This document shows positions 2,053-42,106 of a DNA stretch of 64,000 nt, piece after piece. The notes beneath the pieces were generated by a model, which made no database searches, had not been told where the DNA came from, and saw only the letters and a list, made by a program, of their open reading frames with translations. Both the position numbers and the translations under genes were made by a program. Each line of letters opens with the position of its first letter. The first letter of the stretch is position 1. Source of the stretch: a virus; IMG/VR virus record IMGVR_UViG_3300027857_000017. One strand, given 5' to 3'.

Positions 2053-3096
2053 CTAGTAATCAAGATGTACTCCACTGTTTGCTATCTTATTCCGCTCAAC
2101 ATAACGACTATACGGCACTGTGATACCAGACCACCCACCGGCATCAGCCAGATCAACAATATTCGTCCCACCATTTTTTGCGGACGTTGCCCAGGTGTGG
2201 CGTCCATCATGGGCAGAGAGATTATCTATCCCTATTCTCTTGCCAAGCGCATTCACACGAGCTGTGATAGCCCGTTTTGACATACAGCCCTGGAGGCGGG
2301 TTCCCCCTTTCCCCCTCTGACTTCCCATTAAGAGCAGGTCATTCAGTGAGAGATTAGTATACTGGAAGTAGTTCATCAAAGCCAGTATCGTATCGCCAGT
2401 TAATTTGTGGTTTTGATGTTTCCCCACCTTCTCCCGATAAAAGGCGATTTGCCCAGCACTCATGTCGATATGGGATCTTTTCAGTTGCGCCAGCTCACCA
2501 CACCGCAATCCGTGATCAAAGAAGAGACAAATGAGCACACGATCACGCCAACCTTGTGGTGTATCAGGCTGATCCTTCAGTTGAGCAACCTGCTCCTTAG
2601 AGAGGACAATGGCATCAGGCTTTTTGCCTCCAATACGCACTACCTCTCTATTGCGGTCTACATTGCGCCCCTCTTTGTGACTATACCCTTTGACCATCTT
2701 GATAAGTGCTAATTCTGCTACCGGAAGATGTCCCGCAGAAGTGGCAAGTTGGCAGAGCGTTTTAATCACCGAGAGTCTCACGCCAATAGAACCGATGGTA
2801 TATCCCTTTTGTAACTGCCAACGAACAAAGCCATTGATGATTCCATGCGTCATATGTTGCCACGCACTCAAATCTACATCGGCTTCTTGCCAATGTGCCA
2901 GATCAAGGATGATGCCAGAACAGGCTATTCCTGCTTCTTTGAGGTAGATACCAAACACATTGAGTCCGTTGGCAAAACTACGAATAGTTTCAGGTGATCT
3001 TCGCTCCAGGTAGTGACGCACGATATTCTGGCGGGTCACCTCATCAGCGACCCGTCCAGCAACTTCTAGGGAGGAGTAGGGGATGAGGTCAGTCAT
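2053..3096 (-). CDS. int: tyrosine-type site-specific recombinase / phage integrase
   Basis: 347 aa; LRCGEL (box I Arg), HDGRHTWAT (H-x-x-R-H box II) and C-terminal catalytic Tyr in VPYSRY, all typical of the Xer/lambda integrase family. Confidence 0.85.
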   Translation of the reverse strand: MTDLIPYSSLEVAGRVADEVTRQNIVRHYLERRSPETIRSFANGLNVFGIYLKEAGIACSGIILDLAHWQEADVDLSAWQHMTHGIINGFVRWQLQKGYTIGSIGVRLSVIKTLCQLATSAGHLPVAELALIKMVKGYSHKEGRNVDRNREVVRIGGKKPDAIVLSKEQVAQLKDQPDTPQGWRDRVLICLFFDHGLRCGELAQLKRSHIDMSAGQIAFYREKVGKHQNHKLTGDTILALMNYFQYTNLSLNDLLLMGSQRGKGGTRLQGCMSKRAITARVNALGKRIGIDNLSAHDGRHTWATSAKNGGTNIVDLADAGGWSGITVPYSRYVERNKIANSGVHLDY

Positions 3097-6708: not shown

Positions 6709-7695
6709 CTACATATCATGAAACGAGTTGAAATTGCGAATCTCATCATCACTCACCATCCCGTGATTGAGCCTCTCCATGAACGGCAAAAACACTGGCA
6801 GAGTCTGACACCTCTCGCAAAGAGCGTTGTAGGATATGTCATTTTGACGGTAAACAATCTGCTTCTGTTCAAACCAGCCTTTGCAATGAGCACACCGCGT
6901 CGTGCTACGCATAGGAAACTGCCGCCACATCTGCCCATCTAATTCTTCATGCTGCCCAGACCGGAATGCTGACCCCTGTTTGTAGAAAAAGCTAACCTCT
7001 TGAGTAAGACATCGGTCTCGTAGGTCACGCGCCCAGTCAAGATCCATCGGGCGATACCCTTTACCGCTCTCTCCACCCACTATGACCCAGTGGATACCTT
7101 CAAGGTTGAGTGATGGGAGTGGTCCCAAGAGTGGCTCACAGGATAAGAAGCGTACTGCTACAGGGACTTCGCGTAGGGCATCAGCTCGTGGTGTGAGATC
7201 GTCGGTCTCGATGGAGACCCCCATCCAGACATTAGCAGGCCAGTTGAGTTGTGGACCCAACCGACGCAGGCGACCAACACGCTTTGTCAGGATCTGGAAG
7301 ATATGCCAGTCAGCTCGTCGCATCACATCTAGGCAGGCGCGAATATACTCATCTGGCACCTGGCTATGGAACAGGTCAGACATACTATTGACGAAGAAAC
7401 GTTGAGGCTTCTTAATGTGGAGAGGATCTTCTAACCTCTGAGGGAGTAGTTGAATCTCAGAGAAGGGTTTATGGTACTGCACAGGCATGGCATGACCAGC
7501 GTTATAAGCAGCATGTCGCATATCATGAAGCGCAAAAGCATAGCAATTTTGACATCCAGAGGTAACGCGCGTACATCCGGTGACAGGGTTCCAGCTTTTG
7601 TCTGTCCATGCAATAGAGGTATTTCCGCTCACTTCGTGTTCTCCTTCTCTTGTACTATGAGGTTTTGTTTGGCTTTTTTCGTTGTTGCTCAACAT
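6709..7695 (-). CDS. phage Gp37/Gp68 family protein (DUF5131)
   Basis: IAWTDKSWNPVTGCTRVTSGCQNCYA N-terminal motif is diagnostic of PF07505. Confidence 0.7.
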   Translation of the reverse strand: MLSNNEKSQTKPHSTREGEHEVSGNTSIAWTDKSWNPVTGCTRVTSGCQNCYAFALHDMRHAAYNAGHAMPVQYHKPFSEIQLLPQRLEDPLHIKKPQRFFVNSMSDLFHSQVPDEYIRACLDVMRRADWHIFQILTKRVGRLRRLGPQLNWPANVWMGVSIETDDLTPRADALREVPVAVRFLSCEPLLGPLPSLNLEGIHWVIVGGESGKGYRPMDLDWARDLRDRCLTQEVSFFYKQGSAFRSGQHEELDGQMWRQFPMRSTTRCAHCKGWFEQKQIVYRQNDISYNALCERCQTLPVFLPFMERLNHGMVSDDEIRNFNSFHDM

Positions 7696-14172: not shown

Positions 14173-14904
14173 ATGAGCCATCTCAGTCAGGTTGTGGCAG
14201 TAGAGAAGGACACAAAGGAAAAAGCATCACAGAGACTCTCTCAAGCAAGAGGCGTCTTCGGCAATCGTGGTCTCTTCACCGGTCTGGCTCGTGCCTATAC
14301 ACCCAAAGATGAAGAAGGTGAGCAACTCCCACCTGAGTCCACACGAGTCCAGTACACTGTTAAGCAGGTGCTCAAAGATGCACAGGAAAGCCTGGTAGCA
14401 CTTTTTGATGTAACAGCTACCAAAGATTATACCAACTGCGTAGCAAAAGCCAACATTGAGGTTGATGGCAATGTCCTGCTCAAGGATGTGCCTGCCACGT
14501 ATATCCTGTTCTTGGAGAAACAACTTGCGGAACTGCTCAACTTCGTAAAGACCATTCCAACCCTGGATATGGCAGAGGAATGGCGCTACGACACCACGCA
14601 GGACGCATGGGCTACTCCACCTGTTGAAACGATCAGGTCCAAGAAGGTGATGCGTAACCATGTAATGGCAGAGGCAACGCCGCATCACCCTGCTCAAGTC
14701 CAGGTGTACGCTGAAGATATCCCTGCTGGTCGCTGGAGGACCGTGAAGTACTCCGGTGCCATGCAAGTCACTGACCACAACGCTATGATTGGGCGTATTG
14801 AGCGACTCCAAAAGGCAGTGAAGCATGCCCGTGAGGACGCCAACCGTCAGGAAGTCCTTCAACAGCATGTGGGTGAGACACTCTTGCACTATATCTTCGG
14901 GTAG
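14173..14904 (+). CDS. hypothetical protein (unknown family) upstream of the Y RNA locus
   Basis: 243-aa ORF preceded by AAGGAG; no recognisable motif. Confidence 0.45.
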   Translation: MSHLSQVVAVEKDTKEKASQRLSQARGVFGNRGLFTGLARAYTPKDEEGEQLPPESTRVQYTVKQVLKDAQESLVALFDVTATKDYTNCVAKANIEVDGNVLLKDVPATYILFLEKQLAELLNFVKTIPTLDMAEEWRYDTTQDAWATPPVETIRSKKVMRNHVMAEATPHHPAQVQVYAEDIPAGRWRTVKYSGAMQVTDHNAMIGRIERLQKAVKHAREDANRQEVLQQHVGETLLHYIFG

Positions 14905-14909
14905 CAACG

Positions 14910-15353
14910 ATGGCGCATGCATACTATCACGCAAAAAGTAGTGCCAGACAGTTTGGAGGGACATATGAAGACTATATGCCCCTCCATCAGTTCATGGACC
15001 ACACAAAAGGACATATCGGTGATAACAGACATCGCCTCTTGCTTCACAACACGTGGGGCATTTTCCTGGTGGAACGGATCTTTGGCGCACTCTGGACACG
15101 CCCCTCTGACGGCAAGCAGATTCCCACACGAACCATTCTAGAGCAGCATGTCCTGGAAGACTTACGATGCATCCCAACATTAGAGCAGTGCTTTGCGCAC
15201 GTCCCAGTGGAACCGTGGCAATTTCGCAAGGCACGATCACTCTCAAAAGAGGAGGAGAACGATGACCACAATGCAGACCCCATTGACCCGACAACAACTG
15301 ACGCAACTAACCCAGGAGTACCAAACACTGGAGGAGTGGACGACCATCCGTGA
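14910..15353 (+). CDS. hypothetical protein
   Basis: 147-aa ORF; the C-terminal tail overlaps the next gene and may be shorter in reality. Confidence 0.35.
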   Translation: MAHAYYHAKSSARQFGGTYEDYMPLHQFMDHTKGHIGDNRHRLLLHNTWGIFLVERIFGALWTRPSDGKQIPTRTILEQHVLEDLRCIPTLEQCFAHVPVEPWQFRKARSLSKEEENDDHNADPIDPTTTDATNPGVPNTGGVDDHP

Positions 15354-15765
15354 TTTTGCAAGCCAGGTCTACGGACCTGAGAGAGCTGCTAAGGTTGAAG
15401 TTGAGACCTATGGCGAGTACAACGATGAGGGCGGGACAAACTACAGTGTCAGCGCCGTAACTGCTTACGATGCTAATGGAGAGGGAATAGAATTTGATCT
15501 GACACTACCGTTCTGGACTCAATCCTATTTTGCAGAGACCTTTCAAGGGAAAACGGATGTTGAAGAGGCACTGGAGGCAGCACTTGATGCACTGAAAGAG
15601 TATTATCCTTACAAACCAGAGGGAAAGGCGCTTCTGGAACAGCAGAGATGGGTCCAATGGGAGGATCTACCCGTAGATGAGCATAACGGTGGTGACAAGA
15701 CCTATGATCTCACCATGCAGCCCTCTATCAGTTTCCCTGTGGTCTTTGCTGGGGTTGCTAGTTGA
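15262..15765 (+). CDS. hypothetical protein
   Basis: strong Shine-Dalgarno GAGGAGGA 6 nt before ATG 15262 (internal start of track ORF 15193-15765). Confidence 0.45.
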   Translation: MTTMQTPLTRQQLTQLTQEYQTLEEWTTIRDFASQVYGPERAAKVEVETYGEYNDEGGTNYSVSAVTAYDANGEGIEFDLTLPFWTQSYFAETFQGKTDVEEALEAALDALKEYYPYKPEGKALLEQQRWVQWEDLPVDEHNGGDKTYDLTMQPSISFPVVFAGVAS

Positions 15766-15790
15766 CAGGACTCCCTGTCCCATGTATCAT
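15762..15790 (+). promoter_or_regulatory. strong sigma70-like promoter for the Y RNA candidate
   Basis: TTGACA (15762-15767), 17-nt spacer, TATCAT (15785-15790). Confidence 0.6.
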
Positions 15791-16073
15791 GGCGACGAAG
15801 CACAGATTGAGTAGTAACTTGAGTCTTAATCATAATTTCAGATTCTTGCTTCAGACTCAGTATGCTTCGTTGCCAAACATGCGGAGAGCAGGCATTTTTC
15901 GCTACTGGTCGCGGGTTCGATCCCCGCTCGCGCATTTCGCTGCGCGATAACTCAGTGGCTAGAGTGGGTAGCTGTAACCGAGATGCATCCAAACCCGCGT
16001 GAATGGATGAGAACGAAACTCTTTTGCTAAGAGAAAAGACAAGCCAGGATAGGGCATTTCCTGGCTTGTCGCC
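15791..16073 (+). ncRNA. Y RNA candidate (YrlA-like) with a circularly permuted tRNA-like domain
   Basis: Element order is T-arm GCGGG-TTCGATC-CCCGC (15911-15927), 3' acceptor strand TCGCGCA, a 6-nt loop, complementary 5' acceptor strand TGCGCGA (15941-15947), U8/A9, then a canonical D-arm ACTC-AGTGGCTA-GAGT (15950-15965). The flanking GCTAC (15901) and GTAGC (15968) pair where the anticodon stem would be. The 5' end GGCGAC pairs with GTCGCC at 16068-16073. It lies convergent to and abutting rsr. Confidence 0.5.
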
Positions 16074-16093: not shown

Positions 16094-16177
16094 GGGTGAG
16101 TATCCAAGTGGACAAAGGAAACTGTCTGTAAAACAGCGGGCATCATGCCTTCAGAGGTTCGAATCCTCTCTCACCCA
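16094..16177 (+). tRNA. tRNA-Tyr (anticodon GUA), type II with long variable arm
   Basis: Acceptor GGGTGAG/CTCACCC, TA at positions 8-9, D-arm TCC-AAGTGGACAAA-GGA, anticodon loop CTGTAAA with U33-GUA-A37, variable hairpin GGCAT-C-ATGCC, T-arm AGAGG-TTCGAAT-CCTCT, discriminator A. D-arm and anticodon arm resemble bacterial tRNA-Tyr. Confidence 0.6.
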
Positions 16178-16185
16178 CCCTCTCT

Positions 16186-17805
16186 CTAGAATTCGCCTTT
16201 AATGAAGGAATTCATAAGCAAAGGAGTGACGGTATCTAGTCCTACACAATCCATCGCCCTGCGGTCGTCTGGCGCATTGTTCGTCACATGAGTGGCGGTC
16301 ATCTGCACATTGATGATCTTGGCATTTGGGTTGACCTGAGCACGATACATTTCCAGTAATTGTGCAGGGTGTCCACCGCGCCCGGACCACGTTTCACTAT
16401 CTGTCAGGATCACAAAGGCGTCCACAGGCATTTTGTCGTACAACGCATACCTCATCGGCAGTGACAAATCAGTCCCACCTCCGCCAATTCCCTTAAGCGT
16501 TCTCACTACATCATCCAACCTCTGTGAAGGAGAGATGGTCAACTTCTGCACACCCGTATCTATGCCAATGAGATGGTAGTTCGGCTCAGTTCTCGCCATC
16601 ACCAACGCCATAGCGCCAGCAGCCGTATGCACATCCATACCAGGGATGCCATTGACCTGCCCATAGTGCATCGATCCACTGGTGTCCACTGCCAGCAAGA
16701 TGTGCTTTCCAGTGGGTTCTACTGCTTCAAATGACAGATAGAAGGCATCATTGAGTGCATCGATAATTTCACGTACTGGCTCCCAGGTATGATTCCCTCG
16801 CACGCCTTTCCCGCTGGCATACGTGGTCAATGCCGCAAGGATCTTAATTGGGTGAAGCTTCGCATTGTGAATCCTTTCGCGGTCCCGAAGACGCGACGTA
16901 ATCACTTTTGTCATCTCACCCATTGGCTTGATCACACCCTCCCTGGTCATCGTTGCCAGATTGCGCGTCATTGCCTCAAGCGGCATATCCTCTAGCAATG
17001 CCTCCCAGACCCGTATAGAATGCAAATGCTGAGTAGGAACTGCTTCGCGTGGTAGTTTGTAGGTCTTGATCAGAGAAGCCACTTCACGATCATCCTGAGC
17101 ACGTTTGGCTCGCTCGTATGCCCAGATGATCTTGAGCGCATCATCAGGATGCGGCTCATCACCAACAGACTCCCACCCGCCTTTGACAATCCAGTGATAG
17201 AGGGTGTTATACGTTGAAGTCTCTGCCTTTGGATGTGCCAGGCGGAGCAGATCGCGCTGACTGTAGCCATCCCTCTGCTGATACTTGAGCACCTGATACG
17301 CCAGATTGTGTTCTTTCCTATCATTGAACCAGGAGGCAACGGCACGACGATAGGCACGTCCCCAGCCTCTAAACTGTTTGGCATAGGCGACGAAGTGCAG
17401 GAGGTGCGTGCCGGTCCTGGCTACTTGTGGCAACACAGAGAGCGCATACTGGCGAATCTTCTCATCATCGGCAGCAGCACACCTTGCCAGCGCAAACAGA
17501 GCAGGGTCGTTGGAAGCAGCTCGTCCAGCCTTTGACACTTCTACGATGGAGGTCACTATATCACGCCCATTGCCCTCTTTAAGCATACGCTCCACGGTCT
17601 CTAAATTTTGTTTGGTCAATTCACGCTGCCCGACATAGAGTGTGTTGCTATTGCTCCCCAATATTAAGAACCTTAAGAGGCGCGTAGGATCATCAACAGA
17701 CCAACTAAACCCACCAGCGTTATTGAGAACTTGACTTGACCCAGGAATAGGCTCGGTTTGTGGCGTCTGCTGTGAAAAACGTCCAAAGTTGAGATAGTTC
17801 TTCAT
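16186..17805 (-). CDS. rsr: Ro60 ortholog Rsr (TROVE domain + von Willebrand A domain)
   Basis: About 540 aa; TROVE-like N-terminal region and C-terminal vWA with the MIDAS motif LLAVDTSGSM. Start taken at MKNYLNF (17805), which follows a GGAGGAAGGGGG Shine-Dalgarno. The track ORF extends to 17826. Confidence 0.8.
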   Translation of the reverse strand: MKNYLNFGRFSQQTPQTEPIPGSSQVLNNAGGFSWSVDDPTRLLRFLILGSNSNTLYVGQRELTKQNLETVERMLKEGNGRDIVTSIVEVSKAGRAASNDPALFALARCAAADDEKIRQYALSVLPQVARTGTHLLHFVAYAKQFRGWGRAYRRAVASWFNDRKEHNLAYQVLKYQQRDGYSQRDLLRLAHPKAETSTYNTLYHWIVKGGWESVGDEPHPDDALKIIWAYERAKRAQDDREVASLIKTYKLPREAVPTQHLHSIRVWEALLEDMPLEAMTRNLATMTREGVIKPMGEMTKVITSRLRDRERIHNAKLHPIKILAALTTYASGKGVRGNHTWEPVREIIDALNDAFYLSFEAVEPTGKHILLAVDTSGSMHYGQVNGIPGMDVHTAAGAMALVMARTEPNYHLIGIDTGVQKLTISPSQRLDDVVRTLKGIGGGGTDLSLPMRYALYDKMPVDAFVILTDSETWSGRGGHPAQLLEMYRAQVNPNAKIINVQMTATHVTNNAPDDRRAMDCVGLDTVTPLLMNSFIKGEF

Positions 17806-18036
17806 CGTCCCCCTTCCTCCACTCATAAAATGACACGGGCGAGAAAACGCTCATAGGTACCAAAAGCAGCGATAACCTACGAACTGCGGCCCGTGTCGAT
17901 AAGTCCTGTACTGAGCAAGTGAACTGGGGCGGGAATGTCAGCGATCCCAAAAGAAGCTAATAACCCGCCCATCTCGGCTCAGTACCATGATTGCGTGTCC
18001 TGGATAAAAAGCGATACTGGGTATCTTAAAGTCAAT

Positions 18037-18125
18037 CGCTTTCGACCACTCAGCCACAACAACCTTACGGTCATTGGTGGGATTCGAACCCACGGACATT
18101 TGATAATAACCCAAAATCCGCGACC
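18037..18125 (-). ncRNA. permuted tRNA-like module 2 (Y RNA candidate), minus strand
   Basis: On the minus strand: T-arm GTGGG-TTCGAAT-CCCAC (plus 18077-18093), acceptor-like stem CAATGACC/GGTTGTTG closed by a GUAA tetraloop (18057-18076), D-like hairpin with AGTGG (18037-18056), flanked by complementary CTGGGT/ACCCAG stem strands. Confidence 0.4.
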
Positions 18126-18311
18126 CAGGACAATTGATAAGTCCATGTGTCAGGCAAAAGGCGATAGAGGAAAGCCTGAGAGAACCCAGGTGCCCTACCA
18201 CTAGGCAAAGTCCCCAGCGGAGACTGAAAGAATCGAACTTTCGAGAACCTCCACCAAACGGCCCGACACCATAAGTGCGTGAGATAGACAAAAGGCGACA
18301 TCGGGGTAGGC

Positions 18312-18405
18312 GCTTATGCCACAAGCTCGACAGGTTTCCCTGCGTCGGGATTCGAACCCGCACTCCCTCTTCCAAAAGAGAACCAATGCCAAACGGCCCA
18401 TCTCG
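18312..18405 (-). ncRNA. permuted tRNA-like module 3 (Y RNA candidate), minus strand
   Basis: On the minus strand: T-arm GCGGG-TTCGAAT-CCCGA (plus 18345-18361), acceptor-like stem GCAGG/CCTGT closed by a GAAA tetraloop (18330-18343), D-like hairpin GCTT-GTGGCAT-AAGC (18312-18326). Sits directly downstream of the strong minus-strand promoter. Confidence 0.4.
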
Positions 18406-18411
18406 CTGTTT

Positions 18412-18439
18412 AGTATACTCGCTGTTTGCGATTTGTCAA
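18412..18439 (-). promoter_or_regulatory. strong sigma70-like promoter on the minus strand
   Basis: TTGACA (plus 18434-18439), 16-nt spacer, TATACT (plus 18412-18417); fires toward module 3, module 2 and rsr. Confidence 0.55.
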
Positions 18440-18623
18440 GAAGTTCCAACGAACACGCCTCATCCTCTGCCACATGGTCCAGCCAGATCCGATCAGCACG
18501 ACCAGGGTTGTCAGCGCGTAGCAACCACTAGCAACTTCAAATGCAATCAAGTTCAATTCAATCCCTTTCAACGTATCCCTTGTCCTAGCTAAGTAATACA
18601 CAAAAGGGACCATCATCTCAAAA

Positions 18624-19763
18624 TTAGGAATATTTGGTGATGGAAAACTGTAGTTTCCCCGCCTCGATGCTGAGTGATAGATTTCGCATTTCATGCTGCC
18701 AAATGATCTTCACGATATAGCCCTTACTCTCAATATAAGCAATACGTTTGGCATCATGTTCACGAATAGATTCGGCTGATCTGATACCCTGACCTCTTGA
18801 CTTCCTGATGCCTTGGGTGTGACCACATTGCAAACAGGCATGCCACCAGCAGCCATAAATCTCCACAACTTGGTTACTTTTGATAAGGTAGAAGTCTACG
18901 AGGCAAGACCTAATACGAAATTGCTTTTTGTAGTCAATGTTTTCTTGCCATCCTAATGCATTTAGTTTCTTTTCGAACGCGATCTCCGGTTTTGTGTCCT
19001 TGAGAACACGCTTTTTGCTATTTAGTGCTGCCTCAATCGATGGCATGAGCATATCTGTTCTTTCTTCCTTAGTGAACTGCTCCCAATAGGTTGATTTTGC
19101 TTTTGAGTGCCTCTTTTTTGCCTCATCAGTGTGTTTCTTCCCCAGAGCTGCGGTAGAACTCTTCTGCCTCCTTATTTCAGACTGCTTCTTTCCCTTCTTT
19201 GCTGCCGATATTTTTCTTCGCGTCTCTTCAGAGACTGGCGTATCTTTTTTGGATTCAAACCTTTTCTGAATGTGTTCGGGTGACTGCTTCCGTCCTTTCA
19301 TCGCACCAATCTTACCGTACATTGGGTTGCCTTCGCCTTTGACTCTCTGCGACATTTTTGCCTTGTTCTCTGGTGACATGTTCCATTCATGAACCTCCCA
19401 ATCAATATCTTGCAAGAAAAGCGGATTCATGCCCTGCTCTTCCCTAATTGAATTCAATGTAGCAAGAACATAGGAAGCGGGTTTTATGCGAATAGATTTG
19501 TTTTGTTCATAATAGCAAACTGTGGATACTGGTAGGGAGGTTCGTTTTGCAAACTCCTTTTGCGTAAGCCCTAATTGCATCCTCGCTTCACGCAAAGTTA
19601 ATTTGACAGGTTCTTTGTGGTCAGTTTGATGTTCCAAAAAGGGATCATCGAAGGGTAACGATTGTTGTCTATAGTTCTGCGGTGATAAACTATCCATCGT
19701 GTATAGCCTCCTCCATAGGTTATGCACACGTCTTAGAGGTGTTACAGCACCTCTAAGACGCAA
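18624..19763 (-). CDS. XRE-family HTH + NUMOD3 repeats + Vsr/DUF559-like endonuclease domain protein
   Basis: N-terminal HTH LTQKEFAKRTSLPVSTVCYYEQNK; repeated NUMOD3-like basic motifs (GEGNPMYGK, KISAAKKGK, GKKHTDEAKKRHS); C-terminal VDFYLI..EIYGCWWHAC...GYIVKIIWQHEM resembling the very-short-patch-repair endonuclease fold. Confidence 0.55.
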   Translation of the reverse strand: MRLRGAVTPLRRVHNLWRRLYTMDSLSPQNYRQQSLPFDDPFLEHQTDHKEPVKLTLREARMQLGLTQKEFAKRTSLPVSTVCYYEQNKSIRIKPASYVLATLNSIREEQGMNPLFLQDIDWEVHEWNMSPENKAKMSQRVKGEGNPMYGKIGAMKGRKQSPEHIQKRFESKKDTPVSEETRRKISAAKKGKKQSEIRRQKSSTAALGKKHTDEAKKRHSKAKSTYWEQFTKEERTDMLMPSIEAALNSKKRVLKDTKPEIAFEKKLNALGWQENIDYKKQFRIRSCLVDFYLIKSNQVVEIYGCWWHACLQCGHTQGIRKSRGQGIRSAESIREHDAKRIAYIESKGYIVKIIWQHEMRNLSLSIEAGKLQFSITKYS

Positions 19764-19810: not shown

Positions 19811-21178
19811 TTATTGGCCGTTTACACCTTTTCTTGCCCATTTTTGCCAGCGGGCTTCTTTGCGTCTTATCAGCAACCAGATTGACATGATCAAGGCGTA
19901 AAATTCTACGAAGGTGAGTATATAAAACAGGCACCACGCGATAGGGGACAGTACAAGAAACTCATATCCATACTCCGTTCTCTTTTCCCAAAACTGGACA
20001 AGAAACATGACAAACACGATGATCACGCCACTCAAGAAGGCACTAAAATCTCCGCTGAAGAAGCTAAAGAGGTATAATGCCAACAAAAAGGACGGTTCAA
20101 AGCCTATTTGCACGTCCTGGAATACTGCGAGCGGAAGTATGAGCCAACTGAGCACCTTATTGTGATGAGGTTGCAGCGAAAAGAAGAGATCCCTGTGTTT
20201 CCAGAAAGTCTGCAACCTCCCGCGTTTCCACCGTAGCCGTTGTTTCATGAGTCCGTTGAGAGTGTTAGCGCCCTCGGTGTAGATCAAAGCGTCTGGGCAA
20301 TAGGTTATCTTCATTCCCGCCTTTTGAATACGTGTACTCAGTTCAATGTCTTCCGTGATGTTTTTACAATCATACCCACCCAATTGCTCAAATACTTTTT
20401 TTCTGAACGCTCCTGCTGCCCCTCCAACAATATAGATGCTATTAAGCAAACTGTCTGCTCGCTTAAATCCGAAACCTAAGATGTACTCTAAATATTGCAA
20501 GGTTCCAATTAACCCCTTTGTATTCGCAATACGAACGTTGCCAACCGCTGCCTGTGTTCGAGGGTCTCTAAACGTCTCTACAAAGTGCTCTACTGCCCTT
20601 TCATGCACAATACAGTCAGCATCGATACTGATGAGGATATCGCCGCGAGCAATTGAGATAGCCGTATTGAGCGCTGCCCCCTTACCAGCATTCGTCTGAT
20701 ATCGATAGACAATCTCTATCCGCTCTGAGCGAGGGATGCCCGCCATTTCTCTCTCATAGTCTGCCAGAAACTTGTGCATTTTGAAGTCAGAGTCATCCGT
20801 ACTACCATCATTGACCACCACCAATTCAAGGTGTTTGTAGGTTGAGGCAAGGAGCGTCTTGATCGTGGCAGTAAGTCCAACAGATTCATTCCAGGCAGGG
20901 ATCATCACGCTGACCAGCGGCTGATAATCATGCACGAAGTGATCAAGTAACGCTTTTTCTCGCTTCGCTATGACGCTATACCAGGGACTCAAGAACATAT
21001 ACACGGTGTAGCGAGTCAGCAGCACTGAGGCAAAACACACAATAATCACACGGAGAATGCTTAGAAGTGGGCTATCGAATGGATGTGGCTTCAGTAGGAC
21101 CGATGATGCCATGATAGCCATTGTGATGAGATAGAGCAGGAAATAGACAAGCGGTTTTAACAGTCGGTGCATCTTCAA
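19811..21178 (-). CDS. family 2 glycosyltransferase, multi-pass membrane, processive type
   Basis: DGSTDDS, DAD and QRLRWKRG (QxxRW) motifs with flanking transmembrane segments; the true start may be internal. Confidence 0.8.
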   Translation of the reverse strand: MKMHRLLKPLVYFLLYLITMAIMASSVLLKPHPFDSPLLSILRVIIVCFASVLLTRYTVYMFLSPWYSVIAKREKALLDHFVHDYQPLVSVMIPAWNESVGLTATIKTLLASTYKHLELVVVNDGSTDDSDFKMHKFLADYEREMAGIPRSERIEIVYRYQTNAGKGAALNTAISIARGDILISIDADCIVHERAVEHFVETFRDPRTQAAVGNVRIANTKGLIGTLQYLEYILGFGFKRADSLLNSIYIVGGAAGAFRKKVFEQLGGYDCKNITEDIELSTRIQKAGMKITYCPDALIYTEGANTLNGLMKQRLRWKRGRLQTFWKHRDLFFSLQPHHNKVLSWLILPLAVFQDVQIGFEPSFLLALYLFSFFSGDFSAFLSGVIIVFVMFLVQFWEKRTEYGYEFLVLSPIAWCLFYILTFVEFYALIMSIWLLIRRKEARWQKWARKGVNGQ

Positions 21179-21707
21179 GAAACTCTTTCTTCAATGATCT
21201 CAAATACATATTGGTATCCTGAGTGAGCGCAGGGTGATCGGCAATAGAATACGACACACTTTTTCTCTGCTCTTGCTCATACATCTTCACGGCTTTGACG
21301 CTCATCGTATCCCTGAGATGAATTGCCTTCTGGCGTACCTTTTCTCGTGCAGGCGGGAGTGCTGTCCATGATGCTACATTTGCCCACAGGATCGCCAACA
21401 CGACCCATGTGACAACTCTGTAAATGGGTTGTGACGCTAAAAGCCAATACGCCATATACGCCATCTCAAGCGCAATGACGAGGTACAATGCCTCCGTTAC
21501 CCAGAGCCAGATGCTCACTTTGGAACGAACAGGTGGGAGTGGAAGCACTGTCACTGGCATAGGGATAGTTTCATAGGAGAGAGGCTCGTTATAAACGGGT
21601 TGTCGCATAGGCAGTGTCAGGTAGGGTGATATGCAGGTTGTTTTTGTTTGCGAATAATTCAATGGATTAGTCCTCTTCTTCCACGTAGTCTTGTTGAGAT
21701 ATACCAC
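21072..21707 (-). CDS. integral membrane protein co-encoded with the GT2
   Basis: 211 aa with several hydrophobic helices; overlaps the annotated GT2 start. Confidence 0.4.
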   Translation of the reverse strand: MVYLNKTTWKKRTNPLNYSQTKTTCISPYLTLPMRQPVYNEPLSYETIPMPVTVLPLPPVRSKVSIWLWVTEALYLVIALEMAYMAYWLLASQPIYRVVTWVVLAILWANVASWTALPPAREKVRQKAIHLRDTMSVKAVKMYEQEQRKSVSYSIADHPALTQDTNMYLRSLKKEFLEDAPTVKTACLFPALSHHNGYHGIIGPTEATSIR

Positions 21708-21835: not shown

Positions 21836-22417
21836 ATGCACTATTACATAGACACGGAATTCATCGATGACGGGAAGACGATAGATTTGATCTCCATAGG
21901 GATTGTGTCTGGCGACGGCAGAGAATATTACGCTCAATCGACCGAGTTCACCATTGATAAGGCGTCACCGTGGGTACGAGAACACGTGCTCATGCATTTG
22001 AAATTATGCCCATCCATCAGCACGCCTTCAGTGTACTCTTTGGGAACAGTCTACGGAGCGCAATCACGTCATAAGCAGGGTCAATGTGTTGATCAGTGGC
22101 GTGAACGTATCCACAACTGCCCGTGGCGAACACGGGAACAAATAGCTCATGAGGTGAAGTCGTTCATTGGCGATGATATCCCTGAGTTCCACGCCTGGTG
22201 CGCAGGCTATGACTGGGTTGTCCTCTGCCAGCTTTTCGGCACCATGATGGATCTCCCATCTGGTTGGCCGCACTACATCCGTGATCTGCAGTACGTACTA
22301 GACGAGCGAGGCATCACCGATGAGATGCTCCCACCACAGGAAGAACAATCTCACAACGCCCTAGCTGATGCCCGATACATTCAAAAGATCTGGCAGGTAC
22401 TCGATGGAAAGAGATGA
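21836..22417 (+). CDS. DEDDh 3'-5' exonuclease (DnaQ-like)
   Basis: YIDTEF (Exo I) ... HNALADARY (Exo III with His). Confidence 0.6.
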   Translation: MHYYIDTEFIDDGKTIDLISIGIVSGDGREYYAQSTEFTIDKASPWVREHVLMHLKLCPSISTPSVYSLGTVYGAQSRHKQGQCVDQWRERIHNCPWRTREQIAHEVKSFIGDDIPEFHAWCAGYDWVVLCQLFGTMMDLPSGWPHYIRDLQYVLDERGITDEMLPPQEEQSHNALADARYIQKIWQVLDGKR

Positions 22418-24188: not shown

Positions 24189-24617
24189 ATGAGTGGTGAG
24201 GTCATCAAGTGGGCGGCACTCCTGCCAGATCAACGGGATGCGTTGGTGCATGAAAAAGTAATGGGACACAAGGAGAGGGCGATTTGCCGTAGCGAGCAGC
24301 GCTATGGGTATGACGACGGTGATTGGGAGTGTGGCGAATGTGGTGCAACTGGACAATGGAACAATGCAATGGTTGGTGATCACTATCAGCCAATTCCACA
24401 TTATACACAAAGTCTGGATGCAGCATGGTTGGTGATGGAACATTTCGATGAACTTGTGCTCGTAGTACACGTCAAGCCACGATGGCACTGCACACTTCAC
24501 AAAGACGAGGCTCCATCGGGAAATGCAACCATGAAGACACCACAGGAGGCTATTTGTGTGGCGGCGCTCAGGGCAGCGGGCATCACTGTAGATGAGAGCG
24601 AGAAAACAGATGGGTGA
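24189..24617 (+). CDS. phage ABA-sandwich-domain-like protein
   Basis: IPHYTQSLDAAWLVMEHF resembles the conserved core of the phage ABA sandwich domain. Confidence 0.45.
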   Translation: MSGEVIKWAALLPDQRDALVHEKVMGHKERAICRSEQRYGYDDGDWECGECGATGQWNNAMVGDHYQPIPHYTQSLDAAWLVMEHFDELVLVVHVKPRWHCTLHKDEAPSGNATMKTPQEAICVAALRAAGITVDESEKTDG

Positions 24618-26235: not shown

Positions 26236-26643
26236 ATGAGAACAATCAAGTTTAGAGCCTGGAACAAAGCAGAGCAGAAGATGTACTACGATGTGGGGAT
26301 CAACCCTTACGCTCAAGACTTCTTTATTTTTCACAAAGACGGAGCGATTCAGGATGTCTATGGTTCATCACCAGAACTGATGCAGTTTACAGGACTCAAG
26401 GATGAGAGAGGCAAGGACATCTACGAAGGCGATATTGTACGAATACATCATCCTCAAGACCTCACAGGTGATTTTACCAATGCAGTTGGAGATGTATTCT
26501 GGTGGGATGAAGAAGGTGGATGGTATCACGGGAATAATCATGGGAGACCCCCTAAGCGAATGTGGGACTATGTAGAAATCATTGGCAACATCTGGGAACA
26601 TAAAGATATGTTCCTCAACGCTGAGAGAGATTCTGAGCCATGA
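26236..26643 (+). CDS. YopX family phage protein
   Basis: MRTIKFRAW...KMYYD...GLKDERGKDIYEGDIV...IGNIWEH matches YopX. Confidence 0.65.
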   Translation: MRTIKFRAWNKAEQKMYYDVGINPYAQDFFIFHKDGAIQDVYGSSPELMQFTGLKDERGKDIYEGDIVRIHHPQDLTGDFTNAVGDVFWWDEEGGWYHGNNHGRPPKRMWDYVEIIGNIWEHKDMFLNAERDSEP

Positions 26644-38358: not shown

Positions 38359-38976
38359 ATGAACGACGAGGAAACCTTAGCACAGAGAAAAGCAGCAGAG
38401 CATCGCTGGTGGATGATGCAAAACATGAGACCGGCCTTTCAATGGCTTGGTGGTCACTGGACTTCTGAAGATCTACGAGGATCACGCTTCGAGAACTTTG
38501 ATGCAACCAGGCAGCAGACAGCGTACAATGCTGCACGGATGTTTGTTGAGATGCCACTGGGAACATTCATCCTCTATGGTCCATACGGAACAGGGAAAAC
38601 CCATTTGTTGGCCGCGATCTGTAATGCCCTGCTCGAAAGACATATTGCCTGCAGGTTCGCCACTGCTCCCAACCTGTTTGGTGCTATTGGCGGCTATGTC
38701 AACCACCGTGAGGATTACAGCACCCTGATCGCGCAAGCGATTGCAACTCCACTGCTGGTCATTGATGACGTAGACAAGGCGCGATGGTCAGAGTTCCGAG
38801 AGGAGATCTACTTTGACATTCTTGACGGACGAGCAAAACGGAAGTTGCCCACTGCTCTTTCGACGAACCGCCTTGAGGAGTTGGATACTTTTGTTGGCGG
38901 TGCCTGTCAATCCCGTCTGTCTATTGGGCAGATTGCCATTGAGATGAGCGGTAAGGACTATCGCCCAGAGTTGTAA
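38359..38976 (+). CDS. DnaC/IstB-like AAA+ helicase loader
   Basis: Walker A GPYGTGKTHL and Walker B LLVIDDVD. Confidence 0.75.
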   Translation: MNDEETLAQRKAAEHRWWMMQNMRPAFQWLGGHWTSEDLRGSRFENFDATRQQTAYNAARMFVEMPLGTFILYGPYGTGKTHLLAAICNALLERHIACRFATAPNLFGAIGGYVNHREDYSTLIAQAIATPLLVIDDVDKARWSEFREEIYFDILDGRAKRKLPTALSTNRLEELDTFVGGACQSRLSIGQIAIEMSGKDYRPEL

Positions 38977-41519: not shown

Positions 41520-42106
41520 ATAACGAGATAAGGAGGATCTCTCATATGACAACAGAGTGGTATACCCAACCCCAATACATCGAAGCGGCACGGCGTGTGA
41601 TGGGACATATCGACTTGGACCCGGCCTCCTGCGCGGCAGCAAACCTGATTGTGCGTGCATCCAGGTACTATACCAAAGAGGACAATGGACTGACGCAGTC
41701 GTGGCAATCTGAAAGTGTATGGCTCAATCCACCGTACGGCAAGATCAACGGGCGGAGACTCACAGGGTTCTTCATTTCCAAACTGGTAGAGGAGTACCAG
41801 GCAGGTCATGTCGAGCAGGCAATCCTGCTGACCATGACCGATACGTCAACGAAGTGGTTTCAACTGATTAGAGACTACCCAATATGCTTTGTGAACCACA
41901 AGGTTCACTTTTACACCACTCGACCACTGAAGTCCAATCCAACTGCCTCGCATAAGTATGGTGTGCTTTTCGTGTATCTTGGACCATATGAGGATCGCTT
42001 TATTCAGGAGTTCAGTAGGTTTGGCGATATCTGGCGAAGGATCAGTGCAGACCAGAGAGCGTGTCAACCGTGTTTGTGGGTAGTGGGAAGTGAGGCAGTA
42101 TCATGA
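41516..42106 (+). CDS. phage-type DNA N6-adenine methyltransferase (Dam-like)
   Basis: IDLDPAS ... NPPYG motifs of the phage N-6-adenine methyltransferase family. Confidence 0.7.
   Translation: MNNEIRRISHMTTEWYTQPQYIEAARRVMGHIDLDPASCAAANLIVRASRYYTKEDNGLTQSWQSESVWLNPPYGKINGRRLTGFFISKLVEEYQAGHVEQAILLTMTDTSTKWFQLIRDYPICFVNHKVHFYTTRPLKSNPTASHKYGVLFVYLGPYEDRFIQEFSRFGDIWRRISADQRACQPCLWVVGSEAVS

What the first reader, a model, noticed from the sequence alone, without database searches (positions are those of the whole stretch)
16186..17805. Ro60/Rsr (TROVE + vWA) gene carried on a phage/plasmid-like element
The protein has a TROVE module and a C-terminal vWA domain with the MIDAS motif LLAVDTSGSM, as in Rsr of Deinococcus, Salmonella and mycobacteria. 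Rsr works as an RNP with Y RNAs, partnering with 3'-5' exoribonuclease PNPase in rRNA maturation and RNA quality control. Here it sits in a mobile element surrounded by integrase, Gp37/Gp68, YopX and excisionase genes, so it looks like a mobile RNA-surveillance module that could act in phage-host conflict or stress survival. A 3'-5' exonuclease gene (21836-22417) and a putative RNA-acting ASCH fusion are also nearby.
Basis: partly seen in the sequence, partly recalled or inferred. Interest (0 to 1): 0.65.

Follow-up and report, generated by a model that had tools for sequence, protein, structure and literature searches.

The report
Phage-borne Ro60 gene with Y-RNA array

Summary
A 539-aa ORF on the minus strand (16186-17805) has TROVE (E=5e-38) and Ro60-type vWA (E=3e-42) domains with an intact MIDAS motif, and it aligns end to end with solved Ro60/Rsr structures (E~1e-106 to 1e-109).

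A near-consensus promoter (18439-18412) precedes five tandem Y RNA genes: Y1-Y3 with YrlA-type tRNA-like modules, and short Y4-Y5. They end 27 nt before the rsr start codon. A covariance model built from these units hits only rsr-upstream, same-strand positions. Pairing is supported by compensatory changes (27/28 pairs), and the arrays recur in about half of 160 other rsr loci.

The mobile context is supported: integrase, phage-type replication genes and ParA in the window, an endolysin just beyond it, and closest relatives on viral contigs.

Phage Ro-like proteins (371 deposited phage genomes) and rsr-adjacent Y RNAs in bacteria and phages are already published, so this is a new member of a known kind. 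The "3'-5' exonuclease" is an Rv2179c-like exoribonuclease. No ASCH domain was found.

By-product: a GGUUAUC loop motif, 13 nt after the bulged C, matches human Y1 and nematode sbRNAs.

The parts
16186..17805 (-). rsr: Ro60/Rsr orthologue, 539 aa (TROVE HEAT-repeat ring + Ro60-type vWA domain with MIDAS DTSGS)
   Evidence: ORF. Pfam TROVE 5e-38 and vWA_Ro60 3e-42. Full-length match to PDB 1yvp/9nen/2nvo at E about 1e-106 to 1e-109. phrog_850 E=4e-68. Identical protein P0001 in the public collection.
17815..17820 (-). Shine-Dalgarno GGAGGA, 9 nt upstream of the rsr ATG (17805)
   Evidence: Read directly from the sequence.
17832..17897 (-). Y5: short Y RNA (66 nt). 9-bp closing helix, bulged C-G, second helix, GGUUAUC at the start of the loop. 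It ends 27 nt before the rsr start codon.
   Evidence: MFE -31.9 kcal/mol, z=-4.7, 0/200 shuffles as stable. Rfam nematode sbRNA RF01656 34.1 bits (gathering score 38), E=9e-6. R1 27.6 bits on this strand vs 8.0 on the opposite strand. 36 nt are 92% identical to the rsr-proximal unit of Ktedonobacter L001. Member of the 22-sequence short-class alignment, 11/15 pairs compensatory.
17908..17985 (-). Y4: short Y RNA (78 nt). GUACUGAGC-C-GA...GGGUUAUU...CUUGCUCAGUAC.
   Evidence: Fold with a perfect 9-bp closing helix. R1 25.5 bits, E=6.5e-5 with filters off, vs 2.7 bits on the opposite strand. Aligns with the short class.
17996..18132 (-). Y3: YrlA-type Y RNA (137 nt) with T-arm (GUGGGUUCGAAUCCCAC), GUAA-capped acceptor-like hairpin and D-arm (GCUGAGUGGUCGAAAGC)
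   Evidence: sequence and fold. R1 104 bits. Member of alignment A1.
18147..18269 (-). Y2: YrlA-type Y RNA (123 nt)
   Evidence: MFE -54.1 kcal/mol, z=-3.7. Descriptor hit. R1 85.8 bits.
18281..18404 (-). Y1: YrlA-type Y RNA (124 nt) with V hairpin, T-arm, GAAA-capped acceptor-like hairpin and D-arm
   Evidence: R1 90.5 bits.
18412..18439 (-). Sigma-70-type promoter TTGACA-16 nt-TATACT (11/12). The -10 hexamer ends 7 nt before the first paired base of Y1.
   Evidence: This is a consensus match only; the positional fit to the 5' end of Y1 is my inference.
15878..16000 (+). Candidate sixth, divergent YrlA-like RNA on the opposite strand (T-arm, 7-bp acceptor-like hairpin, D-arm). It lacks the GNCG-bulge stem and the UUAUC motif.
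   Evidence: Rfam YrlA RF02553 32.4 bits (gathering score 69), E=2e-4 at 15889-15992. R1 partial hit at 15911-15958, 22.6 bits. Fold z=-1.6 only. The core resembles YrlA cores of L085/L013/L022. Found only in this phage's own contigs. An 11/12 promoter-like site lies at 15762-15790.
16094..16179 (+). tRNA-Tyr (GTA), convergent with rsr, ending 7 nt from the rsr stop codon
   Evidence: Rfam tRNA 52.8 bits. ARAGORN.
21836..22417 (+). Rv2179c-like 3'-5' exoribonuclease (193 aa), a possible nuclease partner. Linkage is suggestive only.
   Evidence: Pfam PF16473 E=4.8e-15. phrog_2259 E=1.4e-45. A 55% identical orthologue sits two genes upstream of the Y array in L004.

Best explanation
The locus is a complete Ro60/Rsr-Y RNA ribonucleoprotein operon carried by a temperate phage or phage-plasmid-like element of about 93 kb, probably of a Ktedonobacteria-type (Chloroflexota) host.

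SHOWN. A promoter-like site is followed by five tandem structured RNA units and then rsr, with no intervening terminator-like site. All units share a closing stem of one design: a 9-bp helix with a conserved GGGC/GYCY core, a bulged C followed by G, a U-rich 3' internal loop ending in CUUG, and a 7-8 bp second helix followed by GGUUAUC. Three units carry a tRNA-like insert (optional V hairpin, T-arm, 7-bp acceptor-like hairpin, D-arm), which is the published YrlA architecture. The helices covary, and the arrays are conserved in position and strand in many other rsr loci.

INFERRED from characterised systems (D. radiodurans, S. Typhimurium, M. smegmatis, Thermus phage phiLo). The array is transcribed with rsr as a polycistronic precursor and cut into individual Y RNAs. 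Each closing stem docks on the outer surface of the Rsr ring. The effector modules (the tRNA-like domains of Y1-Y3, the loops of Y4-Y5) tether Rsr to a 3'-5' exoribonuclease, either host PNPase as in RYPER complexes or possibly the element's own Rv2179c-like enzyme. Structured or damaged RNAs threaded through the ring are then trimmed or degraded. On a phage this would reshape or protect the RNA pool during infection or lysogeny.
For: Protein identity.

Five units with one stem design. All five are scored by the model with boundaries identical to the manual ones, and they are strand-specific.

Specificity: 10/11 strict descriptor hits lie upstream of rsr on its strand, vs 1-6 scattered hits in shuffles. 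29/30 model hits in 187 kb x 2 strands are rsr-upstream on the same strand.

Covariation: 22/28 pairs compensatory on a MAFFT alignment. On the model-fitted alignment 97.6% of cells pair, vs 66% shuffled and about 42% with slid partners, with 27/28 pairs changed on both sides.

Generality: 95/109 hits in 80 genome loci and 49/52 hits in 80 viral loci are upstream on the same strand, with 1-5 units per locus. The same model hits three deposited actinophage Ro loci.

The architecture matches the published YrlA description, and polycistronic Y-rsr transcription is published (PMC4201824). A phage Ro60 binds upstream Y-like RNAs and host PNPase (PMC12135203).

Mobile context. Relatives on viral contigs. 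Tree.
Against: There is no expression, processing or binding data, so everything beyond sequence and structure conservation is inference.

The Y units do not reach Rfam's YrlA gathering score. Y1-Y3 are not even listed at E<=10.

The published GNCGAA motif is only partly kept: GNCG yes, AA no.

Single-sequence fold z-scores for Y1, Y3 and Y4 are modest (-1.4 to -1.9; Y3 and Y4 were 5'-truncated in that call).

The covariation count is on an alignment fitted to the model.

No terminase, portal or capsid gene was identified inside the 64-kb window, and the 596-aa ORF has no hit. 'Phage' therefore rests on accessory genes, the parent contig and relatives.

The nuclease partner is unknown, and no PNPase gene was seen in the element.
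Confidence: 0.85

Rival explanations
1. Same RNP, but its job is RNA repair or counter-defence rather than degradation. The tRNA-like Y RNAs and Rsr would act with phage RNA-repair enzymes (RlaP nucleotidyltransferase, CCA-adding enzyme, RNA ligases) and phage tRNAs to detect, protect or restore tRNAs cut by host anticodon nucleases or other RNA-targeting defences.
For: In two close relatives rsr is adjacent or near to RlaP plus a CCA-adding enzyme (L002; L005). L004 keeps a CCA-enzyme fragment beside its Y array. A tRNA-Tyr abuts rsr here, and one lies about 450 nt upstream of Ro in Mycobacterium phage Farewell. L004 has a four-tRNA cluster. The acceptor-like stem is 7 bp (helix 4), the feature that makes M. 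smegmatis YrlA an RNase P and CCA-addition substrate (PMC4201824). The jumbo-phage review places phage ROT/TROVE proteins among RNA-repair toolkits with RlaP and CCA enzymes (PMC7824862).
Against: The window itself has no RlaP, CCA-adding enzyme or recognisable RNA ligase (tblastn; Pfam). The linkage is variable among relatives. No defence system or nuclease target is identified. All of this is guilt by association.
Confidence: 0.25
2. The upstream units, at least the rsr-proximal Y5, are cis-acting leader structures of the rsr mRNA (for example for autoregulation by Rsr binding, or for processing and stability) rather than stable trans-acting Y RNAs.
For: A short unit ends 20-30 nt before the start codon in the window and in L001, L003, L004 and L007, next to the Shine-Dalgarno sequence. 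There is no terminator-like site between Y5 and rsr.
Against: In M. smegmatis and D. radiodurans, equally placed upstream RNAs are processed from a polycistronic precursor and accumulate as Rsr-bound RNAs (PMC4201824). The units are discrete, with 10-14 nt spacers and self-contained closing stems. Some loci carry the same units downstream of rsr or on the opposite strand (L078, L076, L053), which a leader role does not explain.
Confidence: 0.1
3. The rsr locus is an ordinary chromosomal gene of a Ktedonobacteria genome, and the surrounding phage-like genes are coincidental neighbours.
For: A 72%-identical Rsr lies on a 3.25-Mb Ktedonobacter contig. More distant relatives (about 50% identity) lie on multi-Mb chromosomes. 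Y arrays are equally typical of chromosomal loci.
Against: The window is densely phage-like on both sides of rsr. The parent 93-kb contig is permuted relative to the window and continues into an endolysin. Relatives at 70-76% identity sit beside terminase/portal or ParAB/replication genes, and several are IMG/VR viral contigs of 70-110 kb. The Ktedonobacter copy is flanked by transposases and an integrase fragment. In the NJ tree the sub-clade groups with actinophage Ro proteins.
Confidence: 0.05

Closest known systems
YrlA/YrlB Y RNAs with Rsr in Mycobacterium smegmatis and mycobacteriophages (Chen et al. 2014, PMC4201824)
   Same: Y RNAs lie upstream of rsr on the same strand. A long unit has V-T-AS-D tRNA-like architecture with a 7-bp acceptor-like stem, followed by a short hairpin-type unit. 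My model built from this window's family hits Farewell, PurduePete and BearBQ at 45-65 bits, and each is followed by a short unit with CCG-N11-UUAUC.
   Different: There are five tandem units here (three long, two short) rather than two, plus a convergent sixth candidate. Both strands of the Ro-binding helix are recognisable (GGGCCG / CUUGCCC), whereas the paper says only the 5' strand is recognisable in M. smegmatis and Salmonella. The GNCGAA motif is reduced to GNCG. The host lineage is Chloroflexota (Ktedonobacteria-like). Rsr is only about 41-42% identical.
Thermus phage phiLo Ro60 with Yrl1/Yrl2 (PMC12135203; PDB 9KOP, 9L5Y)
   Same: A phage-encoded Ro60 with Y-like RNAs directly upstream. 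Binding to the RNAs and assembly with host PNPase were shown there. It is the best experimental precedent for the mechanism proposed here.
   Different: It is a very distant protein (E=1.3e-9, against about 1e-106 to 1e-109 for Xenopus, human and Deinococcus Ro60/Rsr). It has two RNAs, not five, and no tRNA-like modules were described.
Deinococcus radiodurans Rsr with Yrn1/Yrn2 and RNAs a, b, d (RYPER complex with PNPase)
   Same: Several small RNAs upstream of rsr, transcribed polycistronically. Both strands of the Ro-binding helix are retained. There is a tRNA-like element in one Y RNA (PMC4201824). The protein matches full-length (2nvo, E=2e-106).
   Different: It is chromosomal and UV-induced. 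According to the paper, the order of the tRNA-like arms differs from the YrlA type, and the window's units are of the YrlA type.
Salmonella rsr-yrlBA-rtcBA RNA repair operon / Rfam YrlA RF02553
   Same: Rsr with a tRNA-like YrlA and a second Y RNA, and a link to RNA repair enzymes.
   Different: No RtcB, RtcA or RtcR was found here. The Y RNAs are upstream rather than downstream of rsr. Y1-Y3 do not register with RF02553 even at E<=10, and only the plus-strand element scores, at 32 bits against a gathering score of 69.
Metazoan Y RNAs / nematode stem-bulge RNAs (Rfam RF01656)
   Same: For the short units Y4 and Y5: a lower helix with a bulged C (GGGC-C-G vs GGUC-C-GA), a 3' CUUG, an upper helix, and UUAUC at the 5' end of the loop. 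The spacing is 13 nt from the bulged C, as in human Y1 and the sbRNA consensus.
   Different: The score is below the Rfam gathering score (34.1 vs 38). The units are bacterial or phage, promoter-driven and polycistronic, not pol III genes. There is no evidence for any DNA-replication role.

Membership tests
Ro60/Rsr protein (TROVE + Ro60-type vWA) | N-terminal TROVE (HEAT-repeat ring) domain | tested here: met
   PF05731 E=5.1e-38, 131.8 bits vs cut-off 23.
Ro60/Rsr protein (TROVE + Ro60-type vWA) | C-terminal Ro60-type vWA domain with MIDAS DxSxS | tested here: met
   PF25045 E=2.9e-42 over 164 of 165 profile positions. DTSGS is present, and its D, S, S are invariant in 24 homologues. It aligns with DVSAS of Xenopus and human Ro60.
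Ro60/Rsr protein (TROVE + Ro60-type vWA) | Full-length colinearity with experimentally solved Ro60/Rsr | tested here: met
   1yvp: query aa 15-526 align to chain aa 6-525, E=4e-109. 2nvo: query aa 13-538 align to chain aa 15-533, E=2e-106.
Ro60/Rsr protein (TROVE + Ro60-type vWA) | Binds Y RNA and misfolded RNA | not testable with these tools
   Requires biochemistry. The conserved KYxQRxGxSxRDLLRLxH segment shared with Xenopus and human Ro60 is visible, but its role is my inference.
YrlA-class bacterial Y RNA (Chen et al. 2014; Rfam RF02553) | Encoded within 4 kb of the Ro60 gene | tested here: met
   Y1-Y5 lie 27-599 nt upstream of the rsr start codon. The plus-strand candidate lies 186-308 nt beyond the stop codon.
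YrlA-class bacterial Y RNA (Chen et al. 2014; Rfam RF02553) | tRNA-like T and D stem-loops with an acceptor-like (AS) stem-loop between them, and an optional V stem-loop before T | tested here: met
   Y1-Y3 have GGUUCGAAUCC-type T-arms, GNRA-capped 7-bp AS hairpins and GCUxAGUGGU-type D-arms. The T and AS helices are 99% paired, with 4/5 and 7/7 pairs covarying. The D-arm was not included in the tested structure.
YrlA-class bacterial Y RNA (Chen et al. 2014; Rfam RF02553) | 5' GNCGAA(N)G motif resembling the metazoan GGUCCGA | tested here: inconclusive
   GNCG is kept in all five (GCCGU, GCCGU, GUCGC, GCCGA, GCCGC), but the AA is not conserved. C and G are invariant in alignments A1 and A4.
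YrlA-class bacterial Y RNA (Chen et al. 2014; Rfam RF02553) | Reaches the Rfam gathering score (69 bits) | tested here: not met
   No YrlA hit at gathering score in the window or in 7 close loci. Only the plus-strand element scores, at 32.4 bits. However, my model of this family hits known actinophage YrlA loci at 45-65 bits, so they are related to published YrlA even though the curated model does not reach them.
YrlA-class bacterial Y RNA (Chen et al. 2014; Rfam RF02553) | Stable RNA bound by Rsr, with tRNA-type modifications | not testable with these tools
   Needs Northern blots, immunoprecipitation and modification mapping.
Metazoan Y RNA / nematode sbRNA | Lower stem with bulged C (GGUCCGA / UUGACC) and UUAUC at the 5' end of the loop | tested here: met
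   Short-class consensus GnnnCGGGCCGnAG..GGGUUAUC..CUUGCCCGnGnC. The spacing is 13 nt in 286/379 cases. Base-for-base alignment to the RF01656 consensus. Human Y1 5' sequence.
Metazoan Y RNA / nematode sbRNA | Reaches the Rfam gathering score | tested here: not met
   RF01656 34.1 bits vs 38. RF00019 (Y_RNA) is not listed at E<=10. I therefore do not file these as members, only as resembling.
Temperate tailed phage / phage-plasmid | Integrase, phage-type replication and accessory genes | tested here: met
   Tyrosine integrase 2053-3096, DUF5131/Gp88-like 6709-7695, YopX, Phage_ABA_S, DnaC-like, DnaB, HNH, Dam, ParA.
Temperate tailed phage / phage-plasmid | Virion structural and packaging genes (terminase, portal, capsid, tail) | tested here: inconclusive
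   None was recognised inside the window. The parent contig continues into an Amidase_2 endolysin and a protein of more than 934 aa with no family hit. Relatives with 73-76% identical Rsr carry terminase and portal genes.
RYPER-type complex (Rsr-Y RNA-PNPase) | Y RNA tethers Rsr to PNPase | not testable with these tools
   No PNPase was seen in the element. The Rv2179c-like exoribonuclease is an alternative candidate, based on linkage only.

The most novel reading that the evidence does not exclude
The Y RNAs of this bacterial and phage clade may be true sequence homologues of animal Y RNAs, not just functional analogues. Beyond the bulged-C Ro-binding helix and the 3' CUUG, they keep the loop-proximal GGUUAUC motif at exactly the metazoan spacing: 13 nt from the bulged C, as in human Y1 and nematode sbRNAs. 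In the eukaryotic literature UUAUC is known only as a determinant of DNA-replication activity in vitro. Its near-invariance next to rsr genes in Chloroflexota, Armatimonadota, actinophages and others would mean that it serves an ancient Ro60-RNP function (a contact with Ro60 or a conserved partner). It would also suggest that the protein gene and the RNA gene moved between domains of life together, possibly carried by phages.
Probability: 0.4. Interest if true: 0.6.

Novelty: new member of a known kind. Interest (0 to 1): 0.35.

Why it matters
As a finding about this window it is modest. It adds a Ktedonobacteria-type phage lineage to the many phages already known to carry Ro60, and it shows that the gene comes with a full five-gene Y RNA array that no annotation or Rfam gathering-score search would report.

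There are three practical points:
- Rfam's YrlA model misses this large branch of Y RNAs. The covariance model built here recovers arrays of 1-5 units in about half of 160 other rsr loci.
- Deposited phage genomes and metagenome gene calls place 'hypothetical protein' CDSs over these RNAs.
- The variable company rsr keeps in these phages (Rv2179c-like exoribonuclease, RNase T-like, RlaP, CCA-adding enzyme, tRNAs) gives testable candidates for the nuclease or repair partners of a phage Ro RNP.

The UUAUC observation, if it is unpublished and holds up, bears on the long-standing question of whether bacterial and animal Y RNAs share ancestry.

Tried and rejected
- Single-protein searches for related loci in genome and viral contigs found nothing. 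An alignment query was needed.
- Megablast of 24 kb of the window against deposited phages gave no match.
- Rfam at gathering score gave only tRNAs in the window and in 7 close loci.
- Weak Rfam hits judged irrelevant: CRISPR-DR36 at 18518-18572 (E=0.17, single copy); mir-486 on both strands (it is just the palindromic Y4 closing stem); the tmRNA fragments (15-18 nt T-arm matches inside Y units); sR5 and the plastid 3'UTR family (E>6).
- My first folds of Y3 and Y4 were cut at the wrong 5' end and were redone.
- A relaxed structural descriptor was too noisy to measure UUAUC frequency (2555 hits vs about 1730 per shuffle). A model-free k-mer and spacing test replaced it.
- Look-up of the GH18 protein to see beyond the right edge of the window: not on record.
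- The Annual Review on bacterial Ro60 (PMC10870794) is not held, and the supplementary tables of Chen et al. 2014 are not held. I therefore could not check whether Chloroflexota loci or the UUAUC motif were already listed there.
- Considered and rejected: that the units are tRNA genes or pseudogenes (ARAGORN calls none; the arm order is permuted; closing stems covary); that they are coding (only short overlapping ORFs without family hits); that ATG 17826 is the start codon (homologues and the SD sequence favour 17805).
- An ASCH domain was searched for and not found in about 70 ORFs. The only excisionase-like hit is a weak MerR/HTH_17 match at 60449-60955.
- Structure prediction and the 1.84-billion-protein search were not used, because full-length matches to solved Ro60 structures made them unnecessary.
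Full report
OBSERVATION. The reported gene is real and sits at the stated coordinates, on the minus strand. The ORF listing gives 16186..17826 (546 aa). The biologically supported start is ATG 17805 (539 aa). The identical 539-aa protein is in the public collection (P0001), 24 homologues align from that methionine, and a GGAGGA lies 9 nt upstream. Pfam gives TROVE (E=5.1e-38) and the Ro60-specific vWA domain (E=2.9e-42). The MIDAS peptide LLAVDTSGSM is present, and its D/S/S are invariant among homologues. The protein aligns end to end with solved Xenopus Ro60 (E=4e-109), human RO60 (6e-108) and D. radiodurans Rsr (2e-106). It is only remotely similar to the one structurally characterised phage Ro60, from Thermus phage phiLo (1e-9).

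The 800 nt between rsr and the next gene upstream (a homing-endonuclease-like HTH-NUMOD3-Vsr protein at 18624-19763) contain no credible ORF. A permissive Rfam scan gave sub-threshold hits to a nematode stem-bulge RNA family (sbRNAs are Y RNA homologues) directly upstream of rsr, to bacterial YrlA on the other side of rsr, and several T-arm fragments. Reading and folding the minus strand showed five tandem units separated by 10-14 nt: Y1 18404-18281, Y2 18269-18147, Y3 18132-17996, Y4 17985-17908 and Y5 17897-17832. All share one closing-stem design: a 9-bp helix with a GGGC core, a bulged C followed by G, a U-rich 3' internal loop ending in CUUG, and a second helix of 7-8 bp followed by GGUUAUC/U. 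Y1-Y3 additionally carry the V / T-arm / acceptor-like hairpin / D-arm series that Chen et al. 2014 describe for YrlA (PMC4201824). Y4 and Y5 are minimal hairpin-type Y RNAs. An 11/12 sigma-70-type promoter (TTGACA-16-TATACT, 18439-18412) ends 7 nt before the first paired base of Y1, and no terminator-like site separates Y5 from rsr. The likeliest reading is one promoter driving Y1-Y5 and rsr, as shown experimentally for M. smegmatis and D. radiodurans.

IS IT MORE THAN CHANCE? Yes, on four counts.
(i) A strict structural descriptor of the closing stem found 11 hits in 187 kb x 2 strands (the window plus seven related loci). Ten of them lie in the gap upstream of rsr on the rsr strand, against 1-6 scattered hits in shuffled sequence.
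(ii) A MAFFT alignment of ten long units gave an RNAalifold consensus in which 22 of 28 pairs are kept through changes on both sides.
(iii) A covariance model (R1) found 30 matches in the same 187 kb. Twenty-nine were rsr-upstream on the same strand, in arrays of 2-5, and the 30th was the T-arm region of the plus-strand element. On that alignment 97.6% of cells pair, vs 66% in column shuffles and about 42% with slid partners, and 27/28 pairs covary. The caveat is that this alignment is fitted to the model.
(iv) With filters off the model recovers all five window units with the boundaries I had drawn by hand (104, 90.5, 85.7, 27.6 and 25.5 bits), and it scores the opposite strand at 8 bits or less.
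The short class was examined separately. Twenty-two rsr-proximal short units from different loci align to GnnnCGGGCCGnAG..GGGUUAUC..CUUGCCCGnGnC. The outer five pairs use all four Watson-Crick types, while the core stays fixed.

HOW GENERAL IS IT? Very general. Across 80 species-representative genome loci (Chloroflexota, Armatimonadota, Myxococcota and others) R1 gave 109 hits, 95 of them upstream on the same strand, in 51 loci with 1-5 units each. Across 80 IMG/VR viral loci it gave 52 hits, 49 of them upstream, in 26 loci. It also hits the deposited actinophages Farewell, PurduePete and BearBQ at 45-65 bits, each followed by a short unit. The window's RNAs therefore belong to the YrlA/YrlB class already described for Mycobacterium and its phages, even though Rfam's RF02553 does not reach them. 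Five units is toward the high end but not exceptional: the motif count goes up to 8 per locus.

THE OTHER FLANK. On the plus strand, converging on the rsr stop codon, lie a tRNA-Tyr(GTA) (16094-16179) and, 100 nt before it, a tRNA-like element (about 15878-16000). That element is the window's best match to Rfam YrlA (32.4 bits, gathering score 69). It has a T-arm, a 7-bp acceptor-like hairpin and a D-arm in YrlA order, and its core resembles YrlA cores elsewhere. It lacks the bulged-C stem and UUAUC, folds only marginally better than shuffles (z=-1.6), and has no counterpart in related loci. I list it as a candidate only.

CONTEXT: MOBILE OR NOT? The window carries the following:
- tyrosine integrase, 2053-3096
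- DUF5131/Gp88-like, 6709-7695
- DUF7873 and DUF6915, 14173-15353
- GT2 glycosyltransferase, 19811-21178
- Rv2179c-like 3'-5' exoribonuclease, 21836-22417
- Phage_ABA_S, 24189-24617
- YopX, 26236-26643
- DnaC-like loader, 38359-38976, and DnaB, 38990-40405
- HNH, 40743-41519
- Dam, 41516-42106
- ParA, 51023-51973
- ISL3 transposase, 54727-56055
No terminase, portal or capsid gene was recognised inside the window. The identical rsr and integrase lie on a 93,127-bp ENA contig that is permuted relative to the window (rsr at 6.2 kb, integrase at 20.9 kb). That contig continues beyond the window's left edge into a DNA-polymerase exonuclease subunit, an Amidase_2 endolysin, an HNH gene and a protein of more than 934 aa. 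This fits a circular or terminally redundant genome of about 93 kb, like the 94-95-kb IMG/VR relatives. The closest Rsr homologues sit next to terminase/portal (L002, L003, L004) or ParAB/replication/methylase genes (L005, L006). The Ktedonobacter chromosomal copy is flanked by transposases and an integrase fragment. In an NJ tree of 172 Rsr sequences, the window's 14-member clade consists of such contigs plus one short Dictyobacter MAG contig. The next enclosing clade adds IMG/VR contigs and the three actinophages, and the chromosomal Chloroflexota and Armatimonadota sequences fall outside (no support values).

MECHANISM. The shown parts are the gene, the five covarying RNA units, their conserved position, and a stem design that parallels the Ro60-binding helix. 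The rest is inferred from characterised systems: co-transcription and processing; docking of each closing stem on the Rsr ring; and use of the variable modules to tether a 3'-5' exoribonuclease (host PNPase, as in RYPER and as shown in vitro for phage phiLo, PMC12135203) so that structured or damaged RNAs are trimmed or degraded. A variant of this idea is a repair or counter-defence role. It is encouraged by the RlaP plus CCA-adding genes next to rsr in L002 and L005, the CCA fragment in L004, the 7-bp acceptor-like stems, and the tRNA genes nearby. It is in line with published comparative genomics (PMC7824862). However, the window itself has none of those enzymes. The window's Rv2179c-like exoribonuclease has a 55%-identical orthologue two genes from the Y array in L004. 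This is a lead, not evidence.

COMPARISON AND NOVELTY. Phage Ro-like proteins are routine annotations: 371 phage records, all 42% identical or less to this one, and phrog_850. YrlA RNAs were reported near Ro60 in 254 bacteria and 22 phages in 2014, and a phage Ro60-Y RNA-PNPase assembly was published in 2025. This locus is therefore a new member of a known kind. Its particular features are the host lineage, the five-unit array, retention of both strands of the Ro-binding helix, and invisibility to the curated Rfam model.

BY-PRODUCT WORTH A SECOND LOOK. GGUUAUC directly follows the 5' strand of the second helix in nearly every unit. Without using any model, GGTTATC occurs at 1.60/kb in the 1.2 kb upstream of rsr (same strand) vs 0.070/kb elsewhere. 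That is a 23-fold enrichment, and 115/158 loci have it. The distance from the bulged C to the first U of UUAUC is 13 nt in 286 of 379 cases. The Rfam nematode sbRNA consensus aligns base for base with Y5 through this motif. Human Y RNA1 begins GGCTGGTCCGAAGGTAGTGAGTTATC (PMC3928194), which gives the same 13-nt spacing. From my own knowledge, human Y4 and Y5 show the same spacing, and the Y4 5' string is found in published read tables. Reviews describe UUAUC as conserved in sbRNAs and vertebrate Y RNAs and needed for DNA-replication activity in vitro, and they call bacterial Y RNAs 'not homologous' (PMC4726728, PMC4450293).

VERDICT. The real content of the locus is a complete, unannotated Rsr-Y RNA operon. 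Interest is 0.35.

Noticed in passing
window 17832-18404 (-), and the 1.2 kb upstream of rsr in L001-L167: GGUUAUC sits at the 5' end of the loop domain of nearly every Y unit, 13 nt after the bulged C (286/379 cases). It is 23-fold enriched upstream of rsr and present in 115/158 loci. Human Y1 and the nematode sbRNA consensus have the same motif and spacing, where UUAUC has been tied to DNA-replication activity. I found no published link to bacteria or to Ro60.
   Followed up: partly
L174 1104-1443 (Mycobacterium phage PurduePete gp231/gp232); L172 1328-1465 (Farewell gp35); L002 7889-8032; L169 193-396: Deposited phage genomes and metagenome gene calls annotate short 'hypothetical protein' CDSs over regions where the model and motif place Y RNA units. 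No ncRNA feature is annotated in those regions.
   Followed up: partly
window 16094-16179 (+); L172 944-1028; L004 15496-15836 (-): A tRNA-Tyr(GTA) abuts rsr in the window, and one lies about 450 nt upstream of the Ro gene in Mycobacterium phage Farewell, as the last of four tRNAs. L004 has a Ser-Tyr-Gln-Ser tRNA cluster about 6 kb from rsr, over which a 142-aa gene had been called. This could be a recurrent tRNA-Ro linkage or coincidence.
   Followed up: no
window 18270-18280, 18133-18146, 17898-17907 (-): Three of the four spacers between Y units contain ACUUAU (ACGCACUUAUG, AUGGACUUAUCAAU, AGGACUUAUC). This may be a processing site.
   Followed up: no
window 18624-19763 (-): A 379-aa HTH + NUMOD3 + Vsr/DUF559-like protein (homing-endonuclease type) sits directly upstream of the Y-array promoter. 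A separate HNH endonuclease lies at 40743-41519 between DnaB and Dam.
   Followed up: partly
L002 9639-11773; L005 13122-15250; L004 6966-7361: In close relatives rsr is adjacent or near to an RlaP nucleotidyltransferase plus a CCA-adding enzyme. L004 keeps only a C-terminal CCA-enzyme fragment beside its Y array. The window has neither gene.
   Followed up: partly
L007 7770-7976: The short Y units are duplicated with a 73-nt period at 98-99% identity, which looks like a recent tandem amplification of a Y RNA gene.
   Followed up: no
L001 12279-12482: A 67-aa vWA_Ro60 fragment gene lies 2.7 kb downstream of the intact rsr in the Ktedonobacter chromosome, among transposases. It is probably the remnant of a second rsr copy.
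   Followed up: no
L053 5294-5963 (-); L078 4181-5026 (+); L076 4248-4543 (+): Some loci carry Y arrays downstream of rsr (L078 has units on both sides) or on the opposite strand, convergent with rsr (L053). The array position is therefore not fixed.
   Followed up: no
window 1-64000 vs ENA contig k141_2595643 (L168, L170): The 93,127-bp contig carrying the identical rsr and integrase is permuted relative to the window, which suggests a circular or terminally redundant genome of about 93 kb. The 29 kb not in the window begins with a DNA-polymerase exonuclease subunit, an Amidase_2 endolysin, an HNH gene and a protein of more than 934 aa.
   Followed up: partly
window 19811-21707 (-): A membrane GT2 glycosyltransferase (455 aa) and an overlapping 211-aa ORF with no family hit lie between the homing endonuclease and the early-gene block. 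They look like a lysogenic-conversion-type cargo.
   Followed up: no
window 36552-38342 (+): The largest ORF after rsr (596 aa), just upstream of the DnaC/DnaB pair, has no Pfam or PHROG match.
   Followed up: partly
window 54727-56055 (+): An intact ISL3-family transposase (Pfam E=3e-60; phrog_5749 E=7e-127) is inserted in the element.
   Followed up: no
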